From positions 1-34,786 of IMG/VR virus record IMGVR_UViG_3300008009_000023: 34,786 nt of DNA; one strand, 5' to 3'. Shown in pieces: positions 9,129 through 24,250 of this stretch. Each line of letters opens with the position of its first letter. Position 1 is the first letter of the stretch. Position numbers and translations under genes: made by a program. Source of the DNA: a virus. Taxonomy: Duplodnaviria; Caudoviricetes. Under the pieces are notes generated by a model, which was given only the letters and a program-made list of their open reading frames with translations, searched no databases and was not told the origin of the DNA.

Positions 9129-11423
9129 TTACGCTGCTGCCTGCCAGTGATGCAGGTCCAGCATGTTGTCGCCAACTTCGGCATCCACAGGGAAGCCTAC
9201 AGGGCAGTTGATCCCGAAGAAGTGCTTCAGGAAGTGCGGGATCGCCTGCATGATCTTGACCATGCCAGCGACAACCCTGTCGAGAACCGTATGGTGGCAG
9301 TCTGCCCACACACAGTCGTGAACCGTGTTGACGAGGTACGCCTTGCCTCCGAAGAAGTCGTTCTTGACGAACCAGCGCCAAAGCTGACCGAGAACCATCT
9401 GCACAAGTTCACCTCCGGTGCCCTGCACAGGGTAGTTCTTCATCTCGGTCGGGCTGAAGGTGTCGGTGATCCCTTTCCGTCGCAGATAATCAGGCGCATC
9501 GTATGACCGGAACGAGTAGGTTGTGCCTGTGACTGCTTGGTACGTTCCTCGGCGGAAAGTGCGGTATCCGCGCTCGCCATCATGGAACGGCTCAGAAGTC
9601 ACAGTAACTTCCCGCTCGACCGCCGCGTTGAACTTGGTAACACCGGGGTACTCCTTGTCCTCTGATTCGATCAGGGCCTTCACTTCCTCCACGTCCATCC
9701 CGGTCTCGGCAGCGATCAGGGCTGCACCGGCACCGTATGCCCGCTGGAAGCTGAAGATTTTGCACTTGGTGCGCTCCTTCTTCCACTTGCTGTACTCGGG
9801 GTGGTCCTCGTTCTTACAGGCGTCGAGGGCAAACTCGTAGCTGACGCTGTTCTTCAGCGCAACACGCTTGCAGTGGAAGTCCACCTTGTTGTTCAGGTCT
9901 CGACACAGGTTCGCGTCCAAGGACAGCAGACCCATGACGACTACCTCAAGCTGGCTGTAGTCGATCTCGCCCAGCTTGCCATCTTTCCCGAAGCGGGAGA
10001 CGAACATCGCTTTAACTTCCGACTTGTACTTGCCGGTCTCGGCGTCGAAGTCCGCTCGGGTGAGGTTCTGTAGGTTCGGGTCCGACGAGGACAGCCTGCT
10101 CGTGACTGTGCTGGTGTGGTTCAGCTTGTGGTGCACCATGTGGTCCCACGGCTGCACACAGGTGAGCATCCCCTTCTTCTCGCCGGTCTTGGGATCGGTC
10201 TTGACGTAGTACGTCCCGATCTCCTTATTCAGTCGGTTGGCATCGCCCAGCGCAGCGAGGAATGGCACGTTCCCGGCGTTTGCGGTGATTGTGTCGAGCA
10301 CTTCTCCGCTGGTGCTGTACACCGGCCCTCCGAGGCCATCGGTCAGGCTCGACTTCCAGTCGTCCAACGGTACGACGTATCCGGGGAACTCGTGGAAGAA
10401 GTCCTGATACTTTACCTTCAGTTCACCGGGGAACTTGACCTTCTTCGTCTTGTACTCGCCAGCCTTCTTGCCGCTCAGGTACTTGACGTAGTTGTCCGGG
10501 TTCCTACCGGGATCGTCCGGGTTCTCGGTCGTGGTGTGGCCCGTGGTCAGCACCCACTCGTGCCGTTCTTCCTGCTTGCGGGCCAATTCGCCCGTCTTAG
10601 GATCGACGTAGGTGTCCTGCTTCTGGTACTTGACCGTCCCGCCGAAGATCAGCGCAGACTTGTGCACCGGGCTGTTCCAGTTGAACGTCAAGCCCTCGGG
10701 CATGTCTTTGATGTACTGGCTCAGTTCCTCGTCAGCCGCAGCCTGTTCCACGAGGCGCTTGCGCAAGTCGTTCCGTGCTCGCTCCACGTCGATCTTCAGG
10801 CCCCGGAACTCCATCTCCGAGGTTGCGCACAGGCTGTCCATGCGCAGCTTGATCGCGGTGAGCATCCCGAGTTCTTCAGCGGCCTTGATCTGTCCGAGGT
10901 AGATGATCTCGGTGTTTCCGATGTCACCGCTGTTCCGGCCTTCTTCCTCGGTGCCTATCAGATAATCGAGCAGCAGATCACAGTCGATGTCGCTGGTCTG
11001 AACACCGGCATCCCATAGCGCCTTCACACCGTCGATCTTGACCCTGCCGCCGTAGGTCGGGGCGATCTGGTCGAGGCTGTTCATGTGGAACTTCTGCTGC
11101 TGGGCGTTCAGCAGGTACTCGGCGTACTGCGTACACCACACTCGCCCACCCCGCTTGAAGAAGGCGTGCAAGTTCTCACTGCTGAAGCGCATCTCGTAGA
11201 GCAACTCGAACTTCGCGTTGTGCGCCACGATCACGTCAACATCGTCGGGGATGTCCAGCGGCTTCACGCTGTCTGCGTCGTCGTAGAACTCGGCGCTGCA
11301 CCGCTCGTCACCCGCGACCTTCCAGCCGCGAGCGACAATGTAGTTCTCGGGAAGGAACGAGTTCGCCTTCCGTTTGAACCGAGTGTGCGTCTGGGTTTCT
11401 TCGTCAAGGATGAGGTACTTCAT
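9129..11423 (-). CDS. DNA polymerase, family A, with 3'-5' exonuclease
   Basis: Start MKYLILDEET (Exo I); HNAKFE; TSRLSSSDPNLQN; motif A DYSQLE; motif B RTKCKIFSFQRAYG; NYPVQG; motif C VHDC. Confidence 0.96.
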   Translation of the reverse strand: MKYLILDEETQTHTRFKRKANSFLPENYIVARGWKVAGDERCSAEFYDDADSVKPLDIPDDVDVIVAHNAKFELLYEMRFSSENLHAFFKRGGRVWCTQYAEYLLNAQQQKFHMNSLDQIAPTYGGRVKIDGVKALWDAGVQTSDIDCDLLLDYLIGTEEEGRNSGDIGNTEIIYLGQIKAAEELGMLTAIKLRMDSLCATSEMEFRGLKIDVERARNDLRKRLVEQAAADEELSQYIKDMPEGLTFNWNSPVHKSALIFGGTVKYQKQDTYVDPKTGELARKQEERHEWVLTTGHTTTENPDDPGRNPDNYVKYLSGKKAGEYKTKKVKFPGELKVKYQDFFHEFPGYVVPLDDWKSSLTDGLGGPVYSTSGEVLDTITANAGNVPFLAALGDANRLNKEIGTYYVKTDPKTGEKKGMLTCVQPWDHMVHHKLNHTSTVTSRLSSSDPNLQNLTRADFDAETGKYKSEVKAMFVSRFGKDGKLGEIDYSQLEVVVMGLLSLDANLCRDLNNKVDFHCKRVALKNSVSYEFALDACKNEDHPEYSKWKKERTKCKIFSFQRAYGAGAALIAAETGMDVEEVKALIESEDKEYPGVTKFNAAVEREVTVTSEPFHDGERGYRTFRRGTYQAVTGTTYSFRSYDAPDYLRRKGITDTFSPTEMKNYPVQGTGGELVQMVLGQLWRWFVKNDFFGGKAYLVNTVHDCVWADCHHTVLDRVVAGMVKIMQAIPHFLKHFFGINCPVGFPVDAEVGDNMLDLHHWQAAA

Positions 11424-11680
11424 GTTATCTCCCCCTGATATGCGAGGTTGTCGGTCCAGTATTCGCGCCACGTAGCGCCGTAGCACCCGCAGGCGAGCAT
11501 ACCGTAGCTGTCGAAACCCGAGCAGCAGTAGTAGTCGTTCAGGTTCTTGCGCCACAGGTCTCGCATCCCGTTGCGCAGCCAGCCCCATGCGAACCGACGA
11601 ACCTTGGGGTCCGCATAGGCGCAAGCGTTCAGCCAGATCAGCGCGGCGCTCACCTTCAGTCGGAACAGGAAGTCCTTCAT
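11420..11680 (-). CDS. Small Cys/Trp-rich hypothetical protein
   Basis: 86 aa with ATGA overlaps at both ends; CCSG...CGC motif. Confidence 0.65.
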   Translation of the reverse strand: MKDFLFRLKVSAALIWLNACAYADPKVRRFAWGWLRNGMRDLWRKNLNDYYCCSGFDSYGMLACGCYGATWREYWTDNLAYQGEIT

Positions 11681-11922
11681 TGCAGGTTCTCCCCGTCGAT
11701 CTTGTCAGGCAGCATAGCCAGCCAAGCGTGGTCAGTGCGCCACTCGGTGATGGCACGCTCGATGACCGCCTGCTTTCTCTTTGGCACTTCCTTGAGGACT
11801 TCGGCCATCAGCATCTCTGCATCCTCGGCCACGGTGCCACAGAACAGGCTGGCCCGCAGCCCGCCCCGTGCAGCGAAGGACAGTGCGGCCTTCGTCTTGT
11901 AGGTGATGTCGGCTTCACGCAT
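11677..11922 (-). CDS. Hypothetical protein
   Basis: Start MREADITYK at 11922 after AAGGAG; coupled to the ligase stop. Confidence 0.65.
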   Translation of the reverse strand: MREADITYKTKAALSFAARGGLRASLFCGTVAEDAEMLMAEVLKEVPKRKQAVIERAITEWRTDHAWLAMLPDKIDGENLQ

Positions 11923-12808
11923 CGGGTGTCTCCTTGTCGTCGCGCCAGAACTGGAAGGTCGGTTGACGCAGCGCGTCGTAGCTGTCATCCGCCTTGTACT
12001 TTATCTGAGCGATCCGGTTCGGCCATGTGCGGGTCAACCGGGTGGTCCAGCCGTGCCATAGTTCGCGGCGCTCATCGTGCGCCAGACGACCTGGACCAAT
12101 CCCGATCTCCGCGCCCTTGTAGCTGGCGATCAGACCACCAGCCATGCCCTTCGGGTTGCCGTCCTTGTCGATGGCTTCCTCGACCCCGATGATCCGCAGG
12201 TCGATGGTCGGCTCGCGCAGCAACTTCTGGTAGCCCCAGCTTCGCTTTCCCGGCACGAACGGGTCATCCCAATTCCGGGCGACCATGCCTTCAGCCTTCG
12301 GGAACTGGTTGCAGAAGTCCTCGAAGTGGTGCTCAAGCTGGCTCAGGTTCTCGACCCGCTGTTGCCGGAGCACATGCACCCGGCTGTGCAGGTCGTTCAG
12401 TTCCAGCATCGCCTCGTAGCGCCGCTCGAAACCGACCTCCTGAAGCGTAGGGGTGAACATCTCGAACAGACCGAGGGCCAGCCGGTGGCTCTGGTCGTCC
12501 TGCCTCCGAACGATGCCGCTGGTGTCCTTGAAGTCCGCATACGGGTCGCCCTGCTGGTGGACTTCCCCGATCAGCGTGCAGGGCGTGTCGAAGTAGCCCA
12601 GCGCAGCGTTGCCCCGGAACTCGTCTGCGAACTTCTGCACTAGTTGCCGCACCGAGGGAACGTCCTTGCCCTGCCGGGTGCGGCTCGTGTGGTTGCCGTC
12701 CGCGTCGATGTCGATGCGAACCGGCACGCCGTCGATCTTGTGGCTCAGGAACACGGGGAACTTCAGGTGCTTCTCGCTGAAGCCTTTCGCGAGTGGGATG
12801 GTGCTCAT
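11915..12808 (-). CDS. ATP-dependent DNA ligase
   Basis: Motif I HKIDG, LIGE, AEGMVAR, YQKL, C-terminal OB fold with LRQPTF. Confidence 0.93.
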   Translation of the reverse strand: MSTIPLAKGFSEKHLKFPVFLSHKIDGVPVRIDIDADGNHTSRTRQGKDVPSVRQLVQKFADEFRGNAALGYFDTPCTLIGEVHQQGDPYADFKDTSGIVRRQDDQSHRLALGLFEMFTPTLQEVGFERRYEAMLELNDLHSRVHVLRQQRVENLSQLEHHFEDFCNQFPKAEGMVARNWDDPFVPGKRSWGYQKLLREPTIDLRIIGVEEAIDKDGNPKGMAGGLIASYKGAEIGIGPGRLAHDERRELWHGWTTRLTRTWPNRIAQIKYKADDSYDALRQPTFQFWRDDKETPDA

Positions 12809-13380
12809 TGATTGCTCCCGTACATTGCAGTCATGCGCTCAGCGTACCAGCGCAGGAATGTGTCGATCCGCTCGTACAGCTTGTTCATCGTGCTGTCGTT
12901 GTAGATCACGTAGTTGAAGGCGAAGTCCGCGAGCGCTTCCTCACTGGCGTGCGCCTCAACCGGGTCAAGAGCCGGTCGAACCACGTTCACCACGACACCG
13001 CCCGCCCTGCGGATTGCGAGTGCCTCGTTCGGGAAGCGCACGTCATCGAAGATGATGTCGCCGTCGCCGGGCACGATCTGCTTCATCGCAGCATCGACCC
13101 AAAAGTTCTGCGAAATCAGCCCCCGCCCCCACTCCGTACCGAGGGTCTGCATTGCGTAGCGCGGGCTGCGTCCTGCGAGGTAGTCCGTTGGGATTTCCTT
13201 CAGGTGCCCTTCGATGAAGTCGGGGGTGGTCTCGGGTGAAACTCCCTGCTGTTCGAGCAGAGCGGCGATCATCGCCTTGAGAGGCCCGGCAAACTTGCGA
13301 GTGCCGAAGCCCTTGTCGTTCAGGTAGCGGGTGACGGTGCTCTTTCCCGACCCCGCCTTGCCGCTCAATCCGATCAGCAT
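12805..13380 (-). CDS. Deoxynucleoside monophosphate kinase (T4 gp1-like)
   Basis: IGLSGKAGSGKST P-loop, FAGPLK, SPRYAMQTLGTEWGR, DDVRFPNE, HASE. Confidence 0.92.
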   Translation of the reverse strand: MLIGLSGKAGSGKSTVTRYLNDKGFGTRKFAGPLKAMIAALLEQQGVSPETTPDFIEGHLKEIPTDYLAGRSPRYAMQTLGTEWGRGLISQNFWVDAAMKQIVPGDGDIIFDDVRFPNEALAIRRAGGVVVNVVRPALDPVEAHASEEALADFAFNYVIYNDSTMNKLYERIDTFLRWYAERMTAMYGSNQ

Positions 13381-13389
13381 GTGTCTCTC

Positions 13390-13959
13390 CTATGCAGATA
13401 GCCACAGGCGGGCCCAGCGGTCCATGAAGTGGTCAGCACCCATGTTCAGGTACTTCCTGTGCAGCTTGAGGGCGAGGTCGCCGTCAATGCCGAGGTAGCT
13501 GGGTGGCCAGAACTGGTCGTCCTCGGGCACGGGTTTCCACTGCGCCTTGCGCTCCACTTCCAGTGCGGCGTAGTCGTACCGCTTGACGGCGTGGTAGGTC
13601 TCCGGGCCGATGTAACCGCCGAGGGCGAAGCGTACTGCCGACTTGATGTGCGGCGGCTCCACAATGCCCATCAGCATCTTGTTCGGCGTGGTGTTGTCTC
13701 CGATGTACGCCTCGTGTGCGTCATGGATCAGGCAAGCGTATTCCAGCGAAGCCGGTACGCCCTCGTGCTCTGCGAGGTCCGCAGTCAGCATCGAGTGCTG
13801 AAGCACGCTCAGAGGTTCGATCCTCCCGTGGTGCCCGTTGCACCGTTTGATGTGAGACAGTGCGGTCACGATGTCGGTGAGCGCAACGTCTGCCGGGCTG
13901 AAGGTCGCGAGGTTGATGTACCTGCCCGACGAAACGCGCATCCAGATCGGATCAGCCAT
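13390..13959 (-). CDS. HD-domain 5'-deoxynucleotidase-like phosphohydrolase (YfbR-like)
   Basis: RCNGH, SVLQHS, LIHDAHEAYIGD; alternative start at 13968. Confidence 0.85.
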   Translation of the reverse strand: MADPIWMRVSSGRYINLATFSPADVALTDIVTALSHIKRCNGHHGRIEPLSVLQHSMLTADLAEHEGVPASLEYACLIHDAHEAYIGDNTTPNKMLMGIVEPPHIKSAVRFALGGYIGPETYHAVKRYDYAALEVERKAQWKPVPEDDQFWPPSYLGIDGDLALKLHRKYLNMGADHFMDRWARLWLSA

Positions 13960-14146
13960 CGGCTTCATCCTTCAGCACCTCGGCCAGCTTGCGCCAGCGG
14001 GCCGCATGGTGCTGTGCGATACCGAGGTCGCACGATACCCACGAGGGCCGCACGCCGGTGCCATACTGGTCGATGAGGCGCTGTGCCTCCTTATCGTAGT
14101 GCCCGGCCATGCGCATCGCGGTGGCCTTCGTGAGTTCCACGCTCAT
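13952..14146 (-). CDS. Small hypothetical protein
   Basis: MSVELTKAT..., 64 aa, ATGA-coupled to the upstream NDT-like gene. Confidence 0.55.
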   Translation of the reverse strand: MSVELTKATAMRMAGHYDKEAQRLIDQYGTGVRPSWVSCDLGIAQHHAARWRKLAEVLKDEADG

Positions 14147-14658
14147 TTTCCCAAGTCCTTTCTGAGCCATGCCGCCAGTTCGTCCATGTCCGCAGTCACG
14201 CAAGTGGCGAACTGGTACATCACGTCCCAGCGATCCTCGTTGCTGTCGAGCAGGATGTAGCCCGGAGTGCCTCGTCCGAGGAACCACCCGAGTTCCATGT
14301 GCCCGCTCTTGCCCGCAGGCAGCGCCAGCACCATAGTCTTGCTCGCCAGCATGTTGCGCCGGTCGAACTCGAAGGTGTTGACGCTGGCCGGTTCCTTCAG
14401 GGCTTTGGTGTAGGTGTATCCCACGCCCTTGTAGAACGCCTTCCAGTGGTCGTCAGCTTCCGGCCCCGCTGCGTACCAGTCAGCGAACACCTTGGCGTTC
14501 ACCTTGATGTGCAGTTCCTCCATGATCGAAGGAATGGCCGGGTTCCGCAGTGACCCTGCGAGGTACACGTCCCACAGGTAAGGCTTGCGGTTGTCGGGGT
14601 GCCCTTCGGCACCACCGTTCCGCATGAACTCCCAATAGGGCCTCTGTCGCTCGGTCAT
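14143..14658 (-). CDS. Nucleoside 2-deoxyribosyltransferase / nucleotide N-glycosidase-fold protein
   Basis: VYLAGS, FEFDRRNM, GKSGHMELGWFLGRG (catalytic Glu motif), WDVMY; ATG 14658 overlaps the upstream TGA. Confidence 0.8.
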   Translation of the reverse strand: MTERQRPYWEFMRNGGAEGHPDNRKPYLWDVYLAGSLRNPAIPSIMEELHIKVNAKVFADWYAAGPEADDHWKAFYKGVGYTYTKALKEPASVNTFEFDRRNMLASKTMVLALPAGKSGHMELGWFLGRGTPGYILLDSNEDRWDVMYQFATCVTADMDELAAWLRKDLGK

Positions 14659-16271
14659 CGCCAAGCCCTCCCATCACGAATGGTGCAGATCGTCCGCTTC
14701 CCGTTCTCGTAGGTCAAGATGAACGAGTGGCTCCACGACGAGAGGCCCTTGTTGTAGCCCATGTCGAGATGCCCGAAAACGCCTGCGGTGTACACCCCCT
14801 CAGTGATGCCTGCGGAGTGCGTGTGCCCGGTGTTGGCCTTGCCGACCGACCGGAGGTTCTTCGGGTTGCCGCGTGCACCGTTCGGCCCGAGATGCCCGTG
14901 AAGGCCGTGCTCTATCCCGGCGATGATGAGGCTGTCGTCCTCGTGCACGATGTTCCAGCGGTAGTTCTGCGGCAGGTAACGCTTCATCAGCGTCCAGAAG
15001 GGCCGAGGGTGTTCACCCTGCTCACGCTTCCGTGCACACAGGCCGTTCAGGTCGAGCCACGTCCGCATGTTCGCAGGATCGTGGAACGCCCGAGTGTCCC
15101 GCAGCCAGCCCTCGACCGCTTGGTCGTGGTTCGAGGTCACGATGTGGTGCACCGTGCCCGGTCGGGCCAGATGCGAGGACATCTTGCTCGCGATGTACTG
15201 GAACTCGCCCTCGACGCTTTCGCGCTTCTTGGCCCGCATCTCGTGCAGGAAGTGCGGATCGTTCCTGTTGTGGTGGTTGCGCGGCTGGAAGTCCACCGTG
15301 TCGTGGAACACCTGCTGCTCGGGGTAGAGCACGTCGATCACGTCGCTCATCACTTCCAGCACGGACAGGTCAACCTTGTTCCCGTGCAAGTCGCCATGAG
15401 TGACCACCTTTGCCCGCACTTGGCGCTCGATCTGTCCATCAGCGGTGTACTTGTCCGTCAGGTCGTAGATCGTGCCTGAGTTGTCGGCGTTGATCTGCCG
15501 TGCCCACCAGTGGCCGTTCTCATCGACCTCGACCAGCAGCGCACCGTAGACGTGGTGCAAGCTGGCCTTCTGCCCTGCGGCCTTCTCGATGTAGTTCCGA
15601 GCGGTCACAGTGCCGGTGGTGTAGCAGAAGCGCGCCGGGTCGTTCTTCATGGTCGGTACGCTGCGCATCGCCATCTTGGTGTGCGGGATGATAATGCTGG
15701 CACCGCGTCCGTAGTTCTCGAAGCCGGTGATCGGGTCAACCCGCGTGGGGATGATGTTCAGTTCACCGCACCAGATCAGGTCCGCTGCGATCTGCACGCT
15801 CTCGTCCGACACGAACGGCTCGATCCGAGGGTCGAACCAGATGTCGTCCTTGTCGCTCGCTTCCGCGCTGCCCGGCTTCACGCTGTTCTTGCCGTACTGC
15901 TGCTTGTTATAGGTGAAGCGGCTGATGTGCAGTTGCGCCTGCCGGTCCTCGACCAGCGCCATCAGGCTGATCCAGAACTTGTCGTTAAGGAAGGTGTTCG
16001 CCTGAGCACTCGTGAACACGAAGGTCGTGCCCGTGGCCCACTGGCGGAAGTCCTCGGGAGCGGCGATGGTGCCAGTCACCAGCGGTCCATCGTCCTCGGT
16101 CTCCTGCTCGGGCGGGGTTTCGAGCCACTCCCGCCACATGCTGCGGGCGGTGGTGTTCGCCAGCGTGAAGCCCTTGCGCCGCAGAGTGCGGAGTACACCC
16201 GTCAACCCTTCGGCACGGCTGGTCGTCCCCGCCGCAAGCGCGAAGTCCGTGAAGTCTGCTGTCTTTCTCAT
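14655..16271 (-). CDS. T5 A1-like protein with a calcineurin-like metallophosphoesterase domain
   Basis: FTSAQANT, GELNIIPT, YTTGTVT.RNY.EK.AGQKA..HH.YGALLVEVD, then GDLH, HD..DF..RNHH, SNHD, HGH, GHTH, LDMGYN.G.SSWS; start MRKTADF after AGGAG. Confidence 0.75.
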   Translation of the reverse strand: MRKTADFTDFALAAGTTSRAEGLTGVLRTLRRKGFTLANTTARSMWREWLETPPEQETEDDGPLVTGTIAAPEDFRQWATGTTFVFTSAQANTFLNDKFWISLMALVEDRQAQLHISRFTYNKQQYGKNSVKPGSAEASDKDDIWFDPRIEPFVSDESVQIAADLIWCGELNIIPTRVDPITGFENYGRGASIIIPHTKMAMRSVPTMKNDPARFCYTTGTVTARNYIEKAAGQKASLHHVYGALLVEVDENGHWWARQINADNSGTIYDLTDKYTADGQIERQVRAKVVTHGDLHGNKVDLSVLEVMSDVIDVLYPEQQVFHDTVDFQPRNHHNRNDPHFLHEMRAKKRESVEGEFQYIASKMSSHLARPGTVHHIVTSNHDQAVEGWLRDTRAFHDPANMRTWLDLNGLCARKREQGEHPRPFWTLMKRYLPQNYRWNIVHEDDSLIIAGIEHGLHGHLGPNGARGNPKNLRSVGKANTGHTHSAGITEGVYTAGVFGHLDMGYNKGLSSWSHSFILTYENGKRTICTIRDGRAWR

Positions 16272-16279
16272 GGTGTCTC

Positions 16280-16882
16280 CTATATCCGAAGTGACTTGAC
16301 GTGCATAGCACTGATGGCGTCTGCGCTGTAGCCGTTGCGCTCGCCAACGTACCTGCACCAGTTGTCCCACAGGAACTCCGCGCCGCCCCGATCTTCACAG
16401 AGATTGGCGTAGTCCATAGCCATGAGGGCTTTCCGCTTCATGCTCGCCTCCTTGTAGCGGCTGGCTTTGAAGCGGTACGGGTCGATCTCGAAGATGTTCG
16501 AGTTGTGGGTGTCCATGCAGCCTGTCTGGCCGAACACCAGTTGGTTGACGAAGCCACCCTTCACCAGTCCGAGGCCCGGAAGGCTGGCTAAGAACTTCAG
16601 CGTCTCGATCTCAGCGACCCGAGGGTCAGCGAAGCCTGCGTGTAGGTTGCAGGCAACCCGGTACACTTCGTCCTTGCTCTCTTGCAGCCACTCGTAAGCG
16701 CCCAGCTTGAAGCCCCACAGGTACTTGCTCTCGGTTCCTGCCCGGTCAACATCCCGCATTGCTTCTTCGATGGTCGTGATCGACTGCTGGATCGTCAGGT
16801 ACACGAAGGTGATAACTCGGGCCATCTGGTCTGGCCCGGTCATCGCGTACTGGCTGATCTCACTCTGGTCCCTCTGAAACAT
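16280..16882 (-). CDS. HhH-GPD DNA glycosylase-superfamily-like protein
   Basis: Helix-hairpin-helix LASLPGLGLVKG followed by GCMDTH (compare the EndoIII VDTH motif); no Fe-S Cys motif; alternative start at 16888. Confidence 0.65.
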   Translation of the reverse strand: MFQRDQSEISQYAMTGPDQMARVITFVYLTIQQSITTIEEAMRDVDRAGTESKYLWGFKLGAYEWLQESKDEVYRVACNLHAGFADPRVAEIETLKFLASLPGLGLVKGGFVNQLVFGQTGCMDTHNSNIFEIDPYRFKASRYKEASMKRKALMAMDYANLCEDRGGAEFLWDNWCRYVGERNGYSADAISAMHVKSLRI

Positions 16883-18140
16883 CGTCATCTCCGTTGACTA
16901 CGGGCAAGTCCTCGTACCTCGCGATCTGAGGCTTGTAGGAGACACAGGCACGAGGGTCGCCCGGCGATCCCTCGCGGCGCAGCTTGTTCTTCGGCAGGCC
17001 GATGAAGCGGGCATTGGCGTAGCCCAGATCGTCCACCGAACCGATCATCAGGATGAAGTCGCAGGCACCCTGCTTGCCGGTCTTGCTGTCCTTCAGCATG
17101 TGGTCGGCTGGGAACTGCGTGTTCGCACCGTCCGCGCTGATCTGGCTTGTGGCGATGCCAGCGAAGTCGTACTTCACCGCCAACTCCCTCGCCCACTGGT
17201 ACATCTTCTCCAAGGCGAGGTCCGTCCGAGCAGCGTCACCGAAACCGCGCACGTTGTCGATCATGTCATACACCACCAGAGAAGGCTGGTGCTGCTCCAC
17301 GATCCGCTCGACTGCGTAGGTGTCCATCCCGTGGATGTCGAACACTTTGATCTTCCACTGGTCACCCTTGACGGCACCCTCGTACTCCGTGAGCATACGC
17401 CCTCGGCGGTGCAGGTCGATCAGGCTGGACAGCGGCATACCGAGTGCGGCCTGCCACAGACGGGTGTAGATGCGGTTGCCCGGACCCTCGTTGTTGAGCC
17501 ACAGGACAGGTTGATCCGTCTGCGATGCCAGATGCGTGATCTCCGACGCGAGGAAGGTCGTCTTGCCCTTGTCAGGCCGACCGGCAACGATACCGAAGTC
17601 TCCGGGCCGTAGACCCCTCATGCTCTCGTTCAGGCAGTCCAGCCGCCAGCGAAGGCCCTCGTCGTTGATCTCTTGGTTCAGTATCTCGTCCACGTTCACA
17701 CGAATGAAGTCCAGACCCTTGATCCGCGCATCGCGCTGGAACTGCGTCAGGATCGTGTCGAGTTCGCCGTGGATGTTCCCCACGTCGCCTTCCTCGAACT
17801 TCATCACGAGCGTGGCGAGGTCAGAGGACAGCCGCAGTTCGAGCAGGGAGTGCAGAACCACAGCGCGCTCATCGTCTGGTACATCCTGCGCCACCCGCTT
17901 CAGTATCGCTGCGTAAGCGTGCTTCTGCTCGGTGGTCATCTTTGGGTGCCAAGACGAGAACAGCGGCGCGAATGTCTGAAGGTTCACCTTCTCGTGCGTG
18001 GGGAACTTGTCGAAATACTTGCCGAAGTCCTTCAGCAGTGCGACTGTGGTTTTCTCCATGCTTTCCTGCGGCACGCGACCGATGACCTTGCGGTATTCGT
18101 CTCGGTATTTCAGGATTTGGAGTAGCTTCAGGTCGATCAT
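16860..18140 (-). CDS. Replicative DnaB-type (SF4) helicase
   Basis: Walker A GRPDKGKTT, NNEG, VYDMID, TSQ, SKTGKQGACD, KNK. Confidence 0.95.
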   Translation of the reverse strand: MIDLKLLQILKYRDEYRKVIGRVPQESMEKTTVALLKDFGKYFDKFPTHEKVNLQTFAPLFSSWHPKMTTEQKHAYAAILKRVAQDVPDDERAVVLHSLLELRLSSDLATLVMKFEEGDVGNIHGELDTILTQFQRDARIKGLDFIRVNVDEILNQEINDEGLRWRLDCLNESMRGLRPGDFGIVAGRPDKGKTTFLASEITHLASQTDQPVLWLNNEGPGNRIYTRLWQAALGMPLSSLIDLHRRGRMLTEYEGAVKGDQWKIKVFDIHGMDTYAVERIVEQHQPSLVVYDMIDNVRGFGDAARTDLALEKMYQWARELAVKYDFAGIATSQISADGANTQFPADHMLKDSKTGKQGACDFILMIGSVDDLGYANARFIGLPKNKLRREGSPGDPRACVSYKPQIARYEDLPVVNGDDDVSEGPE

Positions 18141-18916
18141 GTCGTGTCCTCTGTGTACTTGATGATTTCCCGGCGACTGTACCGTTTCGGGTCGCGCTCA
18201 GTCTGTATCCGCTTTGGGTCCGCACCGTAGGGTGCAAGTGCCTTCCGCAGTTTGACGAAGCCGTTCCTTCCAGCTTTGTCGCCATCGAACCACCCGATCA
18301 CCGGGAAGTCCGCTATCAGTGCCGCTTGTGTCGGTCCTACGGTAGTCCCGAGTACAGCCAAGCTATTGTATCCCGCTTCGTGTACTCGGATGGCTGAGAG
18401 CACATCTTCGACAACGACAACAGGCGTAGTTCGACCTCGCTGTAGTCGATACCAGCAAGCACCCGTTGACCCACGGGGCATGATGTACTTAGGCTTCCGT
18501 CCGTCGATTGCTCGACCAGTCCACAGGCCGGTTGGTTGTCCATCGTGAAGGATCGGAACGATGACACGGCTGCTTCGATCTGACCATCCAAAGCCGTACT
18601 GCTCCGAAGCACGCTCAGGTGTGATGCCTGCTCTGAGCACCCAAAGGTGGGCGGGAGTTGGCACATCACCGGCGTCGAGGGCGGTAACATCTGGATAGTC
18701 TGCACCAGCTTCTTCCTCATCTCGCTGACGCATTGCCAGTATGTCCGATGCGGACAACCGACCATGCGGCACGAACTCATTCGCCCCGCACCTGAAACAG
18801 TGCAGTGACAAGCCAACCGACCTGTTGGAGATATAGGCTGAAGGGTCTGGTCCACAGTGCGGAACCTTACGCTTCTGCCCGAAGGTCAGTGATCGGGCCT
18901 TGTCCTGCCACTCCAT
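18137..18916 (-). CDS. DNA primase (Zn-binding plus TOPRIM), separate from the helicase
   Basis: Start MEWQDK; HC...HCFRC Zn motif, KPKY, VVEDVLSA, LGT, WFDGDKAG. Confidence 0.9.
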   Translation of the reverse strand: MEWQDKARSLTFGQKRKVPHCGPDPSAYISNRSVGLSLHCFRCGANEFVPHGRLSASDILAMRQRDEEEAGADYPDVTALDAGDVPTPAHLWVLRAGITPERASEQYGFGWSDRSSRVIVPILHDGQPTGLWTGRAIDGRKPKYIMPRGSTGACWYRLQRGRTTPVVVVEDVLSAIRVHEAGYNSLAVLGTTVGPTQAALIADFPVIGWFDGDKAGRNGFVKLRKALAPYGADPKRIQTERDPKRYSRREIIKYTEDTT

Positions 18917-19238
18917 ACCTGCCCGCCTCCACGACTTCGATGGTGAATGTCGCACTCGTGAAGCGCCACACCGCATCGAACATCTGGTACTTACCAGCGT
19001 GGATCGCGATGAACGCAGGGTGCTTCCGCCGCGAGCCATGAGGCCAAGCGACGATGGTCCGCCCGCGTGCTGGATGCTCGTAGCCTTCCAGCCCGCCGTG
19101 CTCCATCAGTCCGTCGATGAGGTACACGAAGCGCTCTTCCCAAGCGACCGTAGACCGAGGCATGAAAGTCTCGACCGCCAAGTCGCTCAGCCAGTCCGCG
19201 TCTGCGACAGCCCGAAGGTGCGCCAGTTCAGTGTCCAT
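18867..19238 (-). CDS. Hypothetical protein
   Basis: Start MDTELAH after GGAG; overlaps the primase start. Confidence 0.6.
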   Translation of the reverse strand: MDTELAHLRAVADADWLSDLAVETFMPRSTVAWEERFVYLIDGLMEHGGLEGYEHPARGRTIVAWPHGSRRKHPAFIAIHAGKYQMFDAVWRFTSATFTIEVVEAGRYGVAGQGPITDLRAEA

Positions 19239-19413
19239 TGGTCCGTCTCCATGCGATGAACGCCACGGCGACCAGCGCCCCGAGCACCCCAGCGAGTGCA
19301 TACGGGAACACGATCATCACGACTGCTGAGAAAAGGTAGATGAGCCACACCGCTGCTCCCACGATGGAGAACAGCAGGCACAGCGACAGGAAAGTCTTGA
19401 TGTAGTAGTCCAT
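19228..19413 (-). CDS. Small two-TM membrane protein
   Basis: MDYYIKTFLSLCLLFSIVGAAVWLIYLF...ALVAVAFIAWRR; overlaps the upstream stop. Confidence 0.6.
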   Translation of the reverse strand: MDYYIKTFLSLCLLFSIVGAAVWLIYLFSAVVMIVFPYALAGVLGALVAVAFIAWRRTNGH

Positions 19414-19886
19414 CAGAACTCTCCGTACTCTCCGTTGAAGGTGAGCTCGCCCTCGACCGTCTCCCACCGCTCGCGCATCTTGTCGATGGCCTTCGAGGGC
19501 ACACCGTGCGACGACTTGAACAGGCCAGTGCAGACGATCACCTTCACGTCCACGTCGCGGGACAGTCCGGTGCGCTGAAGCCCGGTGATGTAGCGTTCGA
19601 CCTCGCGCTTCGTGGTGAAGGCGTTCGCCACGGCGACGGAGTACCCGCTGCGCAGATACCGGAAGGTGCGGCCATAGCACTCGTCGTGCGCCGCGCCGAG
19701 GAACCTGCGGTCGAAGTTGTAGGTCTCGGCGTGCCCATTGCTCGACACGAAGAACTTATCGGCCTCGACCTTGATGGCCTGATACCGCCCGAGTTCGTCG
19801 GCCAGCAGCATCGCAACGATCGTGTCCGCCAGTGTGGACTTGCCAGAGCCGGGCAGGCCACGGATGATGTAAAGGGTCGGTTTCAT
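19413..19886 (-). CDS. P-loop kinase (AAA_33 / polynucleotide-kinase-like)
   Basis: LYIIRGLPGSGKST, EADKFF, VAVANAFT, SSHGVP...M.ERWE. Confidence 0.85.
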   Translation of the reverse strand: MKPTLYIIRGLPGSGKSTLADTIVAMLLADELGRYQAIKVEADKFFVSSNGHAETYNFDRRFLGAAHDECYGRTFRYLRSGYSVAVANAFTTKREVERYITGLQRTGLSRDVDVKVIVCTGLFKSSHGVPSKAIDKMRERWETVEGELTFNGEYGEF

Positions 19887-19986
19887 GTCAGTTCTCCTTG
19901 TGGAATGATGGGTGGCAGTGATGTCGGGATGCCAGCCCGCCAGATGGTTCAGCTTGCGCTAGGGATGTCTGGACCCCCCGTCTCGA

Positions 19987-20313
19987 TCAGAGACCGGCCA
20001 GCGGGTCGTCCTCGTCCTCGATCTCGTCGGCTGCGTCGTCGCCCTCGGCTTCGGTCGCGGCACCGGCGTAGGTCTGGCGCGTCGGCTTCACGATCCGGCC
20101 ATCCTCGGCGGCGCGGTTCAGGTAGGTGCGGACGGTGGTCTCGGCAGGCACTTCGATCCCCGAGGCGACGGCCACGGCGATGATCTCCTTGATGCCCAAC
20201 GAACGCGGGGCGGCGTTCACCAGCGCGGCGAAGGTTCCGACCAGTTCCGGCTCGACGCCGCCACGAACGGGCGCAGCGGGCAGGGCCGAGAAGTCGAAGT
20301 TGAAGTTGGTCAT
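19987..20313 (-). CDS. Winged-helix-like protein with an acidic C-terminal tail
   Basis: LGIKEII..AVASG...PAETTVRTYL...GRIVKPTRQTY followed by EAEGDDAADEIEDEDDPLAGL; RBS GGAGAG. Confidence 0.6.
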   Translation of the reverse strand: MTNFNFDFSALPAAPVRGGVEPELVGTFAALVNAAPRSLGIKEIIAVAVASGIEVPAETTVRTYLNRAAEDGRIVKPTRQTYAGAATEAEGDDAADEIEDEDDPLAGL

Positions 20314-20329
20314 TGGTCTCTCCAAAGGT

Positions 20330-20545
20330 TGTGAGGCAGCACGCCTCGGTTCAGGGCAGGATGCGCCCTCAAGTGCAGCACGCTGGCGTTGTCCACCCTC
20401 TCCACGAGGGTAGGGTTAGCCATAGGTCTCCACGTCTAGCCGCTTCATAGACCATGCTGTTTCTGACTTGCCGGTCAGCCGCAGCTTCACACCCACGGCA
20501 ATGGCCGTGCTGCACATGGGGACGCACCTTGACAGTGCGTCCTGC
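20330..20545 (-). ncRNA. Candidate multi-stem structured RNA (intergenic)
   Basis: 10-bp closing stem 20373-20382/20506-20515 plus at least six further hairpins in about 220 nt with no convincing CDS. Confidence 0.4.
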
Positions 20546-20547
20546 GT

Positions 20548-20868
20548 TCAGGCTGCCTGCTCTTTCAGGCGGTCCGACTGTCCAGTGTCGATCATGCAGG
20601 TCAGGCCGGGCTGCGGCTTGATGAGTACCGTGTAGGTGCCTGTCGAACCGTTGGCCCACAAGTATGCAATGCCTCCCGGTACTGGCGCTGGCTGCTCGTC
20701 CCGCAGCGTTTCACCGTAGTCTTCGGTGAGTTGCTTCTCGATCACGCCAGTCTGCGCGCAGGGAACACCCTGAGCCTCCGCACGGTCATAACCGATGATG
20801 ATGAAGACGATCGCCACGGTCAGCATGGCGATGAGGTTGCCGAAGTAGGCGGCGAAGAAACGGTTCAT
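20548..20868 (-). CDS. Membrane-anchored or secreted protein with a Cys pair
   Basis: MNRFFAAYF...TM segment, then C...L...YGE...TGTYTV...G.TC pattern; RBS AAGGAGAG. Confidence 0.65.
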   Translation of the reverse strand: MNRFFAAYFGNLIAMLTVAIVFIIIGYDRAEAQGVPCAQTGVIEKQLTEDYGETLRDEQPAPVPGGIAYLWANGSTGTYTVLIKPQPGLTCMIDTGQSDRLKEQAA

Positions 20869-20879
20869 GTTCTCTCTCC

Positions 20880-21311
20880 TTATTCGTGGGCGAACCGCGT
20901 GCCCGGAGACACGATGTCGCGGTAGGTGGCGCGGCTCATGCCCGCCATTGTGTCCTTCGTGGAGAAGTGCATCCCCGTGAAGGCCGTGCGCTGGACATGC
21001 ACCCATGTGGTGTCGATGCCGAACAGGTCTGCCCATGCGCTGATGTAGTTCCGCATCGTCTCGTAGACGCGGGTCTCCTTCGCCAGTTCGCAGGACAGCT
21101 TGATGTGCAGCGTGTCCTCGCGTTCCAGCTTGCCACGGAAAGTCTCGGCATGGGACGCTCCGTCGCTCCTCCAGTACCCTTCGGTCGGAATCACGGCGCA
21201 CCCGCCGCACAGCTTGCAGGCGAGTTCGATGACGCGATTGCGAAAATGCTCCGCGTTCTCGGCCTTCCGGTCGTATCCGATCAGGAAGGTCAGTTCGACT
21301 TGTTCACGCAT
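20880..21311 (-). CDS. Hypothetical early protein
   Basis: 143-aa ORF, RBS AAGGAG. Confidence 0.7.
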   Translation of the reverse strand: MREQVELTFLIGYDRKAENAEHFRNRVIELACKLCGGCAVIPTEGYWRSDGASHAETFRGKLEREDTLHIKLSCELAKETRVYETMRNYISAWADLFGIDTTWVHVQRTAFTGMHFSTKDTMAGMSRATYRDIVSPGTRFAHE

Positions 21312-21711
21312 TGGAGTTCTCCTTGCTGGTATTCACACCCTGAACAGGGCGCAGAGTGGGCAACGGCGGGTCCATGGCCATCTTCATGGCGTTGTCGGAC
21401 AGCGCCATCTTCATGGCGTTGTCGGACTGCTTCGGTGCGGTGTATTCCGCGTACTCCATCCAGCAGCTTGCCCCGCAGGGCGTCTTGTTGACGGGATCGT
21501 AGATCATGTGCCCGGCAGGCACATCGTAGTCGTAGTGGTGTTCGGTCTCACCGATCTTCGGTCCCCACACTCGCGTCAGCCGGTCTCCGAACGGTCCACG
21601 GCTCACGTCCACCCACTGGTAGCGGTTCACGCAGATCACCGGCAGGTTCGCGCCCTCTGTGGCATTGGCCTTGATGTGCCACTGGTTCACAGTCACAGTC
21701 ACGACAGTCAT
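21304..21711 (-). CDS. Hypothetical early protein with an internal duplication
   Basis: 135 aa, RBS AAGGAG; contains SDNAMKMA twice. Confidence 0.65.
   Translation of the reverse strand: MTVVTVTVNQWHIKANATEGANLPVICVNRYQWVDVSRGPFGDRLTRVWGPKIGETEHHYDYDVPAGHMIYDPVNKTPCGASCWMEYAEYTAPKQSDNAMKMALSDNAMKMAMDPPLPTLRPVQGVNTSKENSNA
21377..21427. repeat. 24-bp perfect direct repeat, period 27
   Basis: gccatcttcatggcgttgtcggac at 21377-21400 and 21404-21427. Confidence 0.9.
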
Positions 21712-21714
21712 GTT

Positions 21715-21948
21715 TCACTCCTTTGTTGAACGCTCGATGCTCCGTAGCAGAGCAAGGTAGCAGTGTTGCTTCTCACGGACGGAGAAGTCGAGGAAGGCGG
21801 CTAAGATGCCCACCCGAGGGTTGAGCAGGACGACCAGTCCGGTGATCCCGCATAGTGTCCAGCCCGGCGGAGTGTTCAGCAACATCCGGCTCAAGGCTTC
21901 GCTGGCGTGGGATCGGAATGGCCGACCAGTCATCGCATGGGTCATCAC
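21715..21948 (-). CDS. Small hypothetical early protein
   Basis: 77-aa ORF coupled to the upstream stop. Confidence 0.5.
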   Translation of the reverse strand: MMTHAMTGRPFRSHASEALSRMLLNTPPGWTLCGITGLVVLLNPRVGILAAFLDFSVREKQHCYLALLRSIERSTKE

Positions 21949-22160
21949 ACCAACTCCGCTGCATGACGCTCGCTCATCTCGCCCAGCGTGCCATCGGTGA
22001 ACTTGAGCAGTATCCAGTAGCCCAAGAGTGCACCACGGCTGTAGCGCCGGTGATAGGTCGCTTCGCGCACCTGTTCAGACTGCATGGCACGATTGCACAC
22101 GCAGGCCGCCTTGTCACTTGTCACGAACAAAGCGGTCGCGGTATTCGCAGTATCGAACAC
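21945..22160 (-). CDS. Small hypothetical early protein
   Basis: 71 aa, GTG start with upstream AAGGAGG. Confidence 0.55.
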   Translation of the reverse strand: MFDTANTATALFVTSDKAACVCNRAMQSEQVREATYHRRYSRGALLGYWILLKFTDGTLGEMSERHAAELV

Positions 22161-22320
22161 TTCCGTCCTCCTTCCAGAACTCGCGGGCGAGGAACACGAA
22201 GGTGATCGCCATGCCCAGCAGTTGAACTTCGGCAGGCATCATCCAAGTCAGGGTGATGCTGCCCATGCAGCCGACAGCGGACATCAAGCCCACTGTCGCA
22301 ATCTTCTTGAGGGTTTTCAT
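22114..22320 (-). CDS. Small membrane protein (two hydrophobic segments)
   Basis: 68 aa, ATGA-coupled to the upstream micro-ORF. Confidence 0.55.
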   Translation of the reverse strand: MKTLKKIATVGLMSAVGCMGSITLTWMMPAEVQLLGMAITFVFLAREFWKEDGSVRYCEYRDRFVRDK

Positions 22321-22412
22321 CTGTCAACCCACTTCCATGTCCATGTGTCCCATGCAAGCCAGCACTCGCTGACAGGCATATACTTGAGGAGGATGTAGCG
22401 CCCGTCAAACAT
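22317..22412 (-). CDS. 31-aa Trp-rich microprotein (not in the ORF track)
   Basis: MFDGRYILLKYMPVSECWLAWDTWTWKWVDR; RBS-like AGGGGA; stop overlaps the next ATG (ATGA). Confidence 0.5.
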   Translation of the reverse strand: MFDGRYILLKYMPVSECWLAWDTWTWKWVDR

Positions 22413-22467
22413 AGTGTATCCCCTGTAATCCGTCAGGCGGGAGGCCCTGCTGAATACACAGGTGATC

Positions 22468-22677
22468 TTACGCCGCGACCATCAGGGCAACGCGGTCGAG
22501 GTTGAACACGCCGCGCCACTTGTAGAGCGCGAGGTTGGTGCCGATGTCCCGCAGCGCGGTCATAGCCTGCACATAGTCCTCATAGCACTCATCGTAGTCG
22601 TCGTAGGTCTTGCTCCACAGTTGCGTGCCCAGCGAATTGCAGGCACCCCAGCGGTAGCGATTGCTTGTGTTGTTCAT
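22468..22677 (-). CDS. Small hypothetical early protein
   Basis: 69 aa, RBS AAGGAGAG. Confidence 0.7.
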   Translation of the reverse strand: MNNTSNRYRWGACNSLGTQLWSKTYDDYDECYEDYVQAMTALRDIGTNLALYKWRGVFNLDRVALMVAA

Positions 22678-22689
22678 AACTCTCTCCTT

Positions 22690-22802
22690 GGCTGCACTCT
22701 AGTGAGCATGGTCAATCCGTTAGGCGTGCTGCCCTGCTGTATAGACAGGTGGACTTATGCCGCGTGCAGGTAGGGCGGTGCCATGCTCACAAGGGTGCAG
22801 CC
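22690..22802 (-). other. Long-range RNA stem (RNase III-site-like) enclosing a 69-nt loop domain
   Basis: 22690-22711 and 22781-22802 are complementary at 20 of 22 positions. Confidence 0.65.
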
Positions 22803-22828
22803 CGGTGTTAAGCCGGGCCGCAGGTAGG

Positions 22829-23803: not shown

Positions 23804-23832
23804 TGTCTAGCCTAGTCTTGTTCCCTTGTCAA
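23804..23832 (-). promoter_or_regulatory. Host sigma70-type early promoter
   Basis: TTGACA-17 bp-TAGACA. Confidence 0.6.
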
Positions 23833-23942
23833 GCCCTAGTTTCGCTTTCCTGTTGACCTAGGACGCTGGCAATAGGCGGAGCACTCTGGCCCTACAACCC
23901 TGTAGCCTAGTCGCATAGTCTAGTAAGCTAGTTAGTGGCCTA

Positions 23943-24230: not shown

Positions 24231-24250
24231 TGTCTATATGTGTGGAAGTC
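24231..24250 (-). promoter_or_regulatory. Phage RNAP promoter, copy 2 (genome-end region)
   Basis: GACTTCCACACATATAGACA, identical core to the other two copies. Confidence 0.85.

What the first reader, a model, noticed from the sequence alone, without database searches (positions are those of the whole stretch)
12805..16882. Five-enzyme base/nucleotide-processing island between helicase and ligase
Seen: a tightly coupled run of an HhH-GPD glycosylase-like gene, a T5 A1-like metallophosphoesterase, an NDT-fold N-glycosidase/transferase, a 64-aa ORF, an HD deoxynucleotidase and a dNMP kinase. Established: these folds respectively excise or transfer bases on DNA, degrade DNA (T5 A1), cleave or swap bases on deoxynucleos(t)ides (NDT, DNPH1, MilB), dephosphorylate nucleotides (YfbR, DatZ) and re-phosphorylate dNMPs. 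An HD hydrolase plus a kinase is typical of phages that substitute a base, yet the window has no PurZ, thymidylate-synthase/hydroxymethylase, DpdA or deaminase. Inference: this may be an undescribed pathway. Options are salvage-based base substitution, harvesting and sanitising of host (possibly methylated) DNA nucleotides, or depletion of nucleotide immune signals.
Basis: partly seen in the sequence, partly recalled or inferred. Interest (0 to 1): 0.85.

Follow-up and report, generated by a model that had tools for sequence, protein, structure and literature searches.

The report
Phage DNA-harvesting slot with swappable enzymes
A T7-like phage carries a gene related to the host-DNA-shredding nuclease of phage T5 next to several nucleotide enzymes that close relatives gain and lose one by one, so this is likely a flexible kit for recycling and cleaning host nucleotides and not a fixed pathway that makes a new DNA base; one passenger is an unnamed, nearly phage-only family predicted to be a DNA glycosylase.

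Summary
The six ORFs and all five fold calls are confirmed. The window is a T7-like podophage related to Paracoccus phages ParKuw1 and ParMal1 (helicase 84%). The island is not a unit. Among 34 lineages with A1 in this interval, NDT is in 10, HD in 8 and the P-loop dNMP kinase in 6. The full set occurs in 1 of 34. Contigs of close relatives join across the glycosylase gene, or across ORF64+HD, at gene ends. Base substitution is unlikely: no PurZ or ThyA family gene in 30 genomes, and six-base palindromes are at 0.19 of expectation against 0.83-0.86 in two Z-phages. Best reading: A1 digests host DNA, a kinase recycles the dNMPs, and optional enzymes trim or sanitise the pool. Two residues of interest remain. 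All 34 lineages carry exactly one of four enzymes (dNMP kinase, a divergent P-loop protein, DUF3310, DUF5664); the set was chosen after the fact and only 2 independent contrasts support it. The glycosylase is an unnamed OGG2-fold family (Z 14.0) with 744 clusters at 50% identity and invariant Lys108/Asp124. Substrates are untested.

The parts
16860..18140 (-). DnaB-like helicase (left anchor of the slot)
   Evidence: PF03796; 84% to ParMal1/ParKuw1
16280..16882 (-). g1: OGG2-fold HhH-GPD glycosylase-like protein of an unnamed, nearly phage-only family; K108, F111, C122, D124 invariant
   Evidence: AF2 pLDDT 95.9; top matches T. maritima OGG Z 14.0, rmsd 2.6, 163 aligned and SsOgg TM 0.55; 744 clusters; conservation in 172 sequences; no Pfam, PHROG, NCBIfam or PADLOC hit
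14655..16271 (-). g2: T5 A1 homologue, metallophosphoesterase-type nuclease (inferred host-DNA degrader)
   Evidence: 35% to T5 A1; phrog_1745; D294, H296, D324, N381, H382, H458, H460, H483, H485 invariant in 12 of 12
14143..14658 (-). g3: NDT-superfamily protein, predicted dNMP N-glycosidase (DNPH1/MilB type); Y32, R38, D99, E122 invariant
   Evidence: Foldseek NDT/MilB E 4e-5 to 1e-4, DNPH1 E 1.6e-3; MilB by profile E 1.4e-3; 81-sequence alignment; Atlas clusters named dNMP N-hydrolase
13952..14146 (-). g4: 64-aa protein with a conserved GVRPSWV-like motif, found only in the window's sub-clade
   Evidence: 8 of 34 lineages, 1 change on the tree; no family hit
13390..13968 (-). g5: HD phosphohydrolase, predicted 5'-deoxynucleotidase (start may be 13959)
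   Evidence: phrog_318; 2gz4 E 1.9e-9; R42, H58, H82, D83, E86, D91, D132 invariant in 13 of 13
12805..13380 (-). g6: P-loop dNMP kinase
   Evidence: PF21448 62.9 bits; phrog_139 E 6e-49; 740 phage records match
11915..12808 (-). ATP-dependent DNA ligase (right anchor)
   Evidence: PF01068, phrog_114
24231..24247 (-). One of three identical 17-mers (also 4025-4041 and 32456-32472), likely the phage RNA-polymerase promoter; this copy lies upstream of the replication block
   Evidence: 3 exact copies against 0.04 expected; function inferred; no - strand terminator-like site in 11000-25000

Best explanation
This is a variable gene slot in the replication block of a T7-like podophage, in which a T5-A1-like nuclease likely breaks host DNA into deoxynucleoside monophosphates, the kinase g6 likely feeds them back into dNTPs, and three optional enzymes are predicted to clean up, all for DNA that likely has canonical bases. 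Shown: gene identity, folds, catalytic-residue conservation, and gene-by-gene gain and loss among relatives. Inferred steps: (1) A1 degrades the host chromosome, as T5 A1 does. (2) g6 phosphorylates the released dNMPs and host NDK completes the dNTPs. (3) g3 cleaves the base from an unwanted dNMP (damaged or host-methylated), as DNPH1 does for hmdUMP, and g5 dephosphorylates surplus or unwanted dNMPs. (4) g1 excises a damaged purine, most likely 8-oxoG, from DNA already made and hands the site to the adjacent polymerase and ligase. Only A1 plus one pool-adjusting enzyme is constant in the sampled clade; g1, g3 and g5 are independent add-ons, and this phage happens to carry all of them.
For: 34 lineages (63 loci merged at 90% A1 identity, selected for having A1): NDT 10, HD 8, g4 8, dNMP kinase 6, g1 in the slot 3 of the 29 with helicase on the locus; full set 1 of 34. 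ParKuw1 lacks g5 and g6; ParMal1 lacks g1, g3, g5 and g6. Changes on the A1 tree: NDT 5, HD 4, kinase 3; independent pairs show no co-change. Wastewater contigs of two studies join helicase to A1 across g1 (16274-16886; 16281-16897), and one joins g3 to g6 across g4+g5 (13377-14144). In close relatives the kinase position holds alternately g6, a DUF3310 'nucleotide kinase' (ParKuw1) or a divergent P-loop protein (ParMal1; hhalign E 1.6e-5 to g6 family). NDT-family neighbours are pool enzymes: DUF5664 in 21, ThyX in 12 and dCMP deaminase in 7 of 64 groups. T5 A1 is necessary and sufficient for host DNA digestion (10.64898/2026.04.02.716235). Both GC-only (0.13) and AT-containing (0.20) six-base palindromes are avoided; GANTC 7 against 85.7 expected.
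Against: No enzyme was assayed; all substrates are inferred. A1 is 35% identical to T5 A1 and sits among middle genes, not pre-early ones; how the phage would spare its own DNA is unexplained. In T5, A1 plus Dmp destroy rather than recycle nucleotides. 18 of 34 lineages carry DUF5664, a dNTP-to-dNMP hydrolase in the one characterised case (PMC12884076), in place of any kinase, which does not fit a simple harvest model for the whole clade. A phosphatase and a kinase in one operon risk a futile cycle unless their specificities differ. g1 in the slot goes with NDT in 3 of 3 (p 0.015), though in one clade. Pair tests have little power (at most 4 independent pairs). A1 is not needed by all relatives: L011 (helicase 50%) has another phosphoesterase, phrog_284, there.
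Confidence: 0.62

Rival explanations
1. Counter-defence: g5 and g3 remove the precursor of a nucleotide immune signal (dAMP/dIMP for Kongming-type dITP signalling) that A1 and the kinase would otherwise generate, as T5 Dmp does.
For: Phage dNMP kinases trigger Kongming, T5 Dmp counters it, and Dmps co-occur with kinases (10.1101/2024.12.20.629578, passages). The window has A1, kinase and a predicted deoxynucleotidase. Patchy presence is typical of counter-defence genes. The NDT-fold DmtZ hydrolyses dAMP.
Against: HD does not follow the kinase: only 2 of 6 kinase lineages have it, and 6 of 8 HD lineages have DUF5664 instead. No sign of co-change. g5 is HD-fold; T5 Dmp being a different (HAD) fold is recalled. 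In T5 the two genes are separated in time; here they are adjacent.
Confidence: 0.17
2. T5-like destruction: A1, g5 and g3 strip host DNA down to nucleosides, bases and deoxyribose 5-phosphate to silence the host or gain phosphate and carbon; the kinase serves a separate supply route.
For: This is what T5 A1 plus Dmp do. g5 and g3 both act on dNMPs by prediction.
Against: T5 then makes nucleotides de novo; no ThyA or ThyX in the window and no reductase among 30 ORFs scanned. 19 of 34 A1 lineages have neither HD nor NDT (34 minus 15).
Confidence: 0.08
3. A recombination hot spot that collects unrelated accessory genes with no shared function beyond timing of expression.
For: The slot in relatives also holds nucleotidyltransferases, a sulfotransferase-like protein, an HTH protein and membrane-like ORFs. 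g1 lies in the early region in L009, L042, L043 and L044.
Against: Most recurring passengers are nucleotide enzymes, and 34 of 34 lineages keep exactly one of four such enzymes (16.2 expected; 0 of 100,000 permutations; not tree-corrected).
Confidence: 0.09
4. An undescribed base-substitution or base-exchange pathway: g3 transfers deoxyribose-phosphate to a salvaged non-canonical base (DmtZ-like), g5 removes the canonical competitor, g6 phosphorylates the product, and g1 swaps or edits bases on DNA.
For: [quoted passage not shown] 20% of the genome is missing from the window.
Against: No PurA/PurZ or ThyA family in 30 of 30 genomes and records. No ThyX, deaminase or TGT family in the window, ParKuw1 or ParMal1. 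The part missing from the window is head, tail and internal-virion genes in ParKuw1. Palindrome avoidance 0.19 against 0.83, 0.86 and 0.64 in three modified-DNA controls. The genes assort separately. g1 matches the PaMx11 amino-acid:DNA transferase at only Z 4.4 against 14.0 for OGG. Polymerase 74-82% identical to relatives lacking the genes.
Confidence: 0.04

Closest known systems
Phage T5 A1 / Dmp / Dnk
   Same: A1 homologue (35%), a predicted dNMP phosphatase and a dNMP kinase in one phage.
   Different: T5 is a 122-kb siphophage with A1 and dmp pre-early and de novo nucleotide synthesis. Here the genes are adjacent middle genes of a ~44-kb podophage, the phosphatase is HD-fold and optional.
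T7/T4-type recycling of host DNA (T7 gp1.7-type kinase, T4 gp1-type kinase)
   Same: T4 and T7 recycle nucleotides from host DNA. Relatives put DUF3310, labelled nucleotide kinase by PHROGs, at the position of g6. That DUF3310 is T7 gp1.7 is recalled.
   Different: The nuclease is A1-type, and three or four unrelated families alternate in one slot.
DNPH1/Rcl and MilB nucleotide N-glycosidases; DmtZ of PurZ0 phages
   Same: Fold and triad: Y32, D99, E122 match DNPH1 Y24, D80, E104 in spacing; R38 matches R30. Uncharged residue (G116) six before the nucleophile, as in hydrolases.
   Different: Under 20% identity; no PurZ context; residues that set base specificity differ; substrate unknown.
OGG2-type 8-oxoguanine glycosylases (T. 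maritima Tm1821, SsOgg)
   Same: Best fold match by a clear margin (Z 14.0 against 9.3 next), similar size, HhH hairpin followed by invariant Lys and Asp.
   Different: 10-12% identity, no PF22175 match, Lys register shifted by one against the recalled pattern, own invariant set (C122, N127, Y158, W172, W175, C176, S191, H194), nearly phage-only.
Z-genome clusters (PurZ/DatZ/MazZ; PurZ0/DutZ/DmtZ/DUF5664)
   Same: HD hydrolase, NDT-fold enzyme and (in relatives) DUF5664.
   Different: No PurZ; g5 matches phiVC8's HD protein only over 18 residues by BLAST; palindromes strongly avoided.

Membership tests
Z-DNA (PurZ/PurZ0) system | PurA-like PurZ gene | tested here: not met
   PF00709: 0 of 30 genomes/records, control rings in 14 of 14; window 80% complete, ParKuw1 and ParMal1 whole
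Z-DNA (PurZ/PurZ0) system | Modified base in virion DNA | not testable with these tools
   Needs LC-MS; indirect sign against: palindromes 0.19
hmU/hmC or dU substitution systems | Thymidylate-synthase-family hydroxymethylase or dCMP deaminase | tested here: not met
   PF00303 0 of 30; PF00383 0 in window, G029, ParKuw1, ParMal1, positive in DSS3_VP1
7-deazaguanine (DpdA) systems | TGT-fold transglycosylase | tested here: inconclusive
   PF01702 0 of 5; phage DpdA may be too distant for this model; no such hit among 30 ORFs
Amino-acid:DNA transferase (aGPT-Pplase) | Fold closest to PaMx11 gp46 and hmdU kinase context | tested here: not met
   8z2m Z 4.4 at rank 28 against OGG Z 14.0; no hydroxymethylase
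HhH-GPD glycosylase superfamily | HhH fold | tested here: met
   Ranks 1-18 in VIA are all HhH glycosylases; Foldseek top 35 listed rows likewise, though none reaches E 0.001
HhH-GPD glycosylase superfamily | Catalytic Asp after the HhH motif | tested here: met
   D124 in 100% of 172 sequences; feature as described in PMC8307549
OGG2 (bifunctional 8-oxoG glycosylase) | Catalytic Lys on the second HhH helix | tested here: inconclusive
   K108 100% conserved, but three residues after the second Gly and 16 before the Asp; recalled canonical spacing is two and 18-19; no residue-level superposition available
OGG2 (bifunctional 8-oxoG glycosylase) | Match to PF22175 | tested here: not met
   0 match at E 10; only Atlas feature neighbours at ranks 25 and 29 carry PF22175 on 35-40% of members
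OGG2 (bifunctional 8-oxoG glycosylase) | 8-oxoG excision | not testable with these tools
   Needs assay
T5 A1 family | Full-length homology with metal-binding motifs | tested here: met
T5 A1 family | Host DNA digestion | not testable with these tools
   Shown for T5 A1 only
NDT superfamily | Fold and Tyr/Asp/Glu triad | tested here: met
DNPH1/MilB-type dNMP hydrolases | Phosphate pocket: uncharged residue in place of the transferase Asp, Arg six after the Tyr | tested here: inconclusive
   G116 at E-6 and invariant R38, S36, S118 fit; the Ser at E-6 of DNPH1/MilB is absent; by spacing only
DmtZ | Clade membership and PurZ0 context | tested here: not met
   Ghobes and Wayne not among 18 phage hits; hhalign probability 19%; no PurZ
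HD 5'-deoxynucleotidase (YfbR-like, phrog_318) | H..HD..D metal ligands plus Arg, Glu, Asp | tested here: met
   Invariant in 13 of 13; YfbR numbering recalled
Phage dNMP kinase (PF21448) | Score above curated cut-off, intact P-loop (7-14) | tested here: met

The most novel reading that the evidence does not exclude
g1 founds a widespread, unnamed phage family of OGG2-fold glycosylases that removes a base lesion or mark put on phage DNA by host defence or oxidation. With g3 it would form a two-level proofreading pair (DNA and nucleotide pool). In addition, A1 in podophages needs exactly one partner from four unrelated families, which would make stand-alone DUF5664 a functional stand-in for dNMP kinases in phages with canonical DNA.
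Probability: 0.17. Interest if true: 0.72.

Novelty: new variant of a known kind. Interest (0 to 1): 0.42.

Why it matters
As a pathway the island is ordinary in kind: host-DNA breakdown with nucleotide recycling is known from T4, T5 and T7. Two things deserve bench time. First, g1 gives a fold and candidate catalytic residues to a family of 744 clusters that no library searched here names; a cultured phage (ParKuw1, 82% identical) carries it and its relative ParMal1 does not, which is a ready natural comparison. Second, the one-of-four rule after A1 makes a testable prediction about what DUF5664 and DUF3310 do in phages without modified DNA, and about how a podophage copes with the dNMP flood from an A1 nuclease.

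Tried and rejected
Pfam gave nothing for g1-g4; NCBIfam nothing above cut-off; PADLOC nothing for g1, g2, g3, g5, g6. A sequence-profile search of PDB with the g1 alignment found no glycosylase. Homology of DUF5664 to DUF3310 or MazG, which would have explained their exclusion, was not detected (hhalign probability under 1%). A conserved partner for the g1 family: none; the top real neighbour, DUF932, is in 10 of 43 groups, a pyrimidine-dimer glycosylase in 5. The careful tree did not finish; the quick tree was used. Tree-aware test of kinase/DUF5664 exclusion: 2 of 2 independent pairs go the expected way, p 0.5, too few. The 43.6-kb contig of the same phage (L201) and L205 could not be searched whole. 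The divergent P-loop family was searched only within loci, not genome-wide. Palindrome test: partial loci of distant clade members range 0.37-0.71 and overlap the dU control, so the test speaks for the window, ParKuw1 (0.13) and ParMal1 (0.27) only; controls are three phages with other hosts. Expression: no RNA holder listed; the two wastewater runs laid are probably DNA. Literature: 'ParKuw1' gave one ICTV listing, with no passage found; searches for phage 8-oxoG/OGG2 glycosylases listed no paper on this family, judged from titles and abstract starts only; gp1.7 search gave no primary paper; NDT plus kinase search gave one unrelated preprint, not read. Earlier scan findings: nothing. No complex prediction was run, as no binding is claimed. 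Supplements were not read; the DmtZ paper's NDT tree and HMM may bear on where g3 falls.


Full report
What the window is. All real genes lie on the - strand and form a T7-like podophage: primase, DnaB helicase, ligase, family-A polymerase, exonuclease, endonuclease VII, single-subunit RNA polymerase, portal, terminase, tail. The helicase is 84% identical to Paracoccus phages ParMal1 and ParKuw1 (Autographivirales, Kuwvirus). The record is about 80% complete; in ParKuw1 the part missing here holds head, tail and internal-virion genes. Eighteen of 24 listed runs hold half or more of the island's words, all groundwater or aquifer metagenomes. The host is inferred to be an alphaproteobacterium from kinship and from GANTC avoidance (7 against 85.7).

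Observation. The six ORFs are as described. g1 has no hit in Pfam, PHROGs, NCBIfam or PADLOC. Its model (pLDDT 95.9) matches the OGG2 glycosylase of T. maritima at Z 14.0, rmsd 2.6 over 163 residues; the next 17 rows are other HhH glycosylases at Z 9.3-6.6. Foldseek ranks SsOgg first (TM 0.55), though no row reaches E 0.001. K108, F111, C122 and D124 are invariant in 172 sequences. g2 is 35% identical to T5 A1 with metal ligands invariant in 12 of 12. g3 folds like NDT, MilB and DNPH1. Y32, R38, D99 and E122 are invariant in 81 sequences and match DNPH1 Y24, R30, D80, E104 in spacing (PMC10603095, passages); the Tyr points to deoxyribose and the uncharged G116 to a 5'-phosphate pocket (PMC12884076, sections 19 and part of 18, abstract and passages). 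g5 has a full HD ligand set. g6 passes PF21448.

Is it a unit? No. ParKuw1 has g1-g4 then a DUF3310 protein, without HD or g6; ParMal1 has only A1, g4 and a divergent P-loop protein. I took all fetched loci with A1 followed within 6 kb by ligase or polymerase (63 loci; A1 loci without a closed interval were dropped) and merged them at 90% A1 identity into 34 lineages. A1 is in all by selection. NDT is in 10, HD 8, g4 8, g6-type kinase 6; g1 is in the slot in 3 of 29 with helicase present. The full set is only in the window's own species. Fisher p: NDT-HD 0.67, HD-kinase 0.61, NDT-kinase 1.0. g1-NDT (0.015), g1-g4 (0.003) and g1-kinase (0.042) are lower, but rest on three members of one clade. 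On the quick tree NDT changes 5 times, HD 4, kinase 3, and independent pairs show no co-change, with at most 4 pairs. From the other side: of the 80 best g1 loci, 6 have A1, 5 NDT, 5 HD, 5 kinase nearby; of the 80 best NDT loci, 5 have g1 (many contigs are short). Laid contigs of close relatives from two wastewater studies join helicase to A1 across g1 (sides 25 and 49 letters), and one joins g3 to g6 across g4 and g5 (side 70) (threshold 85%, short sides, so supporting evidence only).

A regularity. Every one of the 34 lineages has exactly one of: g6-type kinase (6), a divergent P-loop protein (6), DUF3310 (4) or DUF5664 (18). Shuffling gives 16.2 on average and never 34 in 100,000. Whole-record searches agree: DUF5664 in 18 of 28, PF21448 in 3 (one weak, in a divergent-P-loop genome), DUF3310 in 3, none together. 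The state changes at least 8 times on the tree. Limits: I chose the four after seeing the data, shared descent inflates the permutation result, replacement at one position can itself cause exclusion, and the kinase/DUF5664 contrast has 2 independent pairs. DUF5664 from phage Wayne hydrolyses dATP, dUTP and dGTP to monophosphates, the opposite direction to a kinase, so the rule is unexplained for that half of the clade.

Base substitution. No PurA/PurZ or ThyA family match in 30 of 30 genomes and records. No ThyX, dCMP deaminase or TGT family in the window, ParKuw1 or ParMal1, with positive controls. Six-base palindromes: 107 observed against 576 expected (0.19; GC-only 0.13, AT-containing 0.20), ParKuw1 0.13, ParMal1 0.27, against phiVC8 0.83, Ghobes 0.86 and DSS3_VP1 0.64 (Ghobes Z-DNA from PMC12884076, the modified DNA of the other two recalled). 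The genome behaves as if every base is exposed to restriction. g3 is only distantly like DmtZ, and g1 is far closer to OGG than to the amino-acid:DNA transferase of PaMx11.

Mechanism. T5 A1 is necessary and sufficient for host DNA digestion; T4 and T7 recycle the products, T5 dephosphorylates and excretes them (10.64898/2026.04.02.716235, abstract, introduction and start of results). This phage shows no de novo supply genes among those tested, and it has a dNMP kinase, so recycling is the likelier use. A broad kinase would also pass damaged or methylated host dNMPs; a DNPH1-type glycosidase and an HD phosphatase are the kind of enzyme that removes them, and an OGG2-fold glycosylase beside polymerase and ligase would repair what gets in. 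The g3 family elsewhere sits with DUF5664, ThyX and dCMP deaminase (21, 12 and 7 of 64 groups). All these steps are inferred (0.62). The main rival is Dmp-like counter-defence (10.1101/2024.12.20.629578, passages), weakened because HD does not track the kinase (2 of 6).

The g1 family. 744 clusters at 50% identity; 487 stretches in viral contigs against 2 loci in 185,579 prokaryote genomes, both in MAGs; 6 records in 50,697 phage records, all 'hypothetical'. It lies in the early region in several podophages and has no fixed partner. It is not an OGG2 member by profile; whether K108 is the Schiff-base lysine is open. The two paper searches aimed at it (listings only) showed no description. PMC8307549 (passages) describes OGG2 as archaeal and mentions no phage form in the passages seen.

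Verdict. Observation confirmed; joint-pathway reading not supported; harvest-and-clean reading favoured. New variant of a known kind, interest 0.42, carried mainly by the unnamed glycosylase family and the one-of-four rule.

Noticed in passing
window 4025-4041, 24231-24247, 32456-32472 (- strand): Three identical 17-mers, likely the phage RNA-polymerase promoter: after the RNAP gene, ahead of the early/replication block and ahead of the tail-fibre genes.
   Followed up: partly
window 29020-31659 (-): 879-aa tail protein with a GTA TIM-barrel domain (PF13547, E 8e-115), typical of roseobacter-type phages and gene transfer agents.
   Followed up: no
window 25344-26168 (-): GH19 endolysin (PF00182, phrog_181).
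   Followed up: no
whole window: Extreme avoidance of six-base palindromes (0.19; eight of them at zero against 13-22 expected) and of GANTC (7 against 86).
   Followed up: partly
L002:20223-20720 (ParMal1), L007, L009, L199, L202, L225: A divergent P-loop protein annotated 'hypothetical' sits where g6 sits; weak links to dNMP kinases (phrog_139, hhalign E 1.6e-5, PF21448 E 5.8e-4), likely an unrecognised dNMP-kinase subfamily.
   Followed up: partly
L010:13545-14306, L124:8422-9054, L128:8420-9043: A sulfotransferase-like P-loop protein (PF00685, E 4e-4, below cut-off) lies between NDT and DUF5664 in three lineages; also near g1 in L044.
   Followed up: no
L011:1292-2494: A different metallophosphoesterase (phrog_284) stands where A1 would be, followed by DUF5664: possible non-orthologous replacement of A1.
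   Followed up: no
L010:14287-14754, L012:11525-11950: PHROGs labels these DUF5664 proteins 'endolysin; inhibits RNA polymerase' (phrog_5033, phrog_2252), which looks like a mislabel.
   Followed up: no
L284:19818-20387 (DSS3_VP1): A distant g1 homologue lies directly after the ribonucleotide reductase genes of a Naomviridae phage.
   Followed up: partly
window 13952-14146: g4 is confined to one sub-clade (1 change on the tree) and precedes the kinase position; no family or fold assigned.
   Followed up: partly
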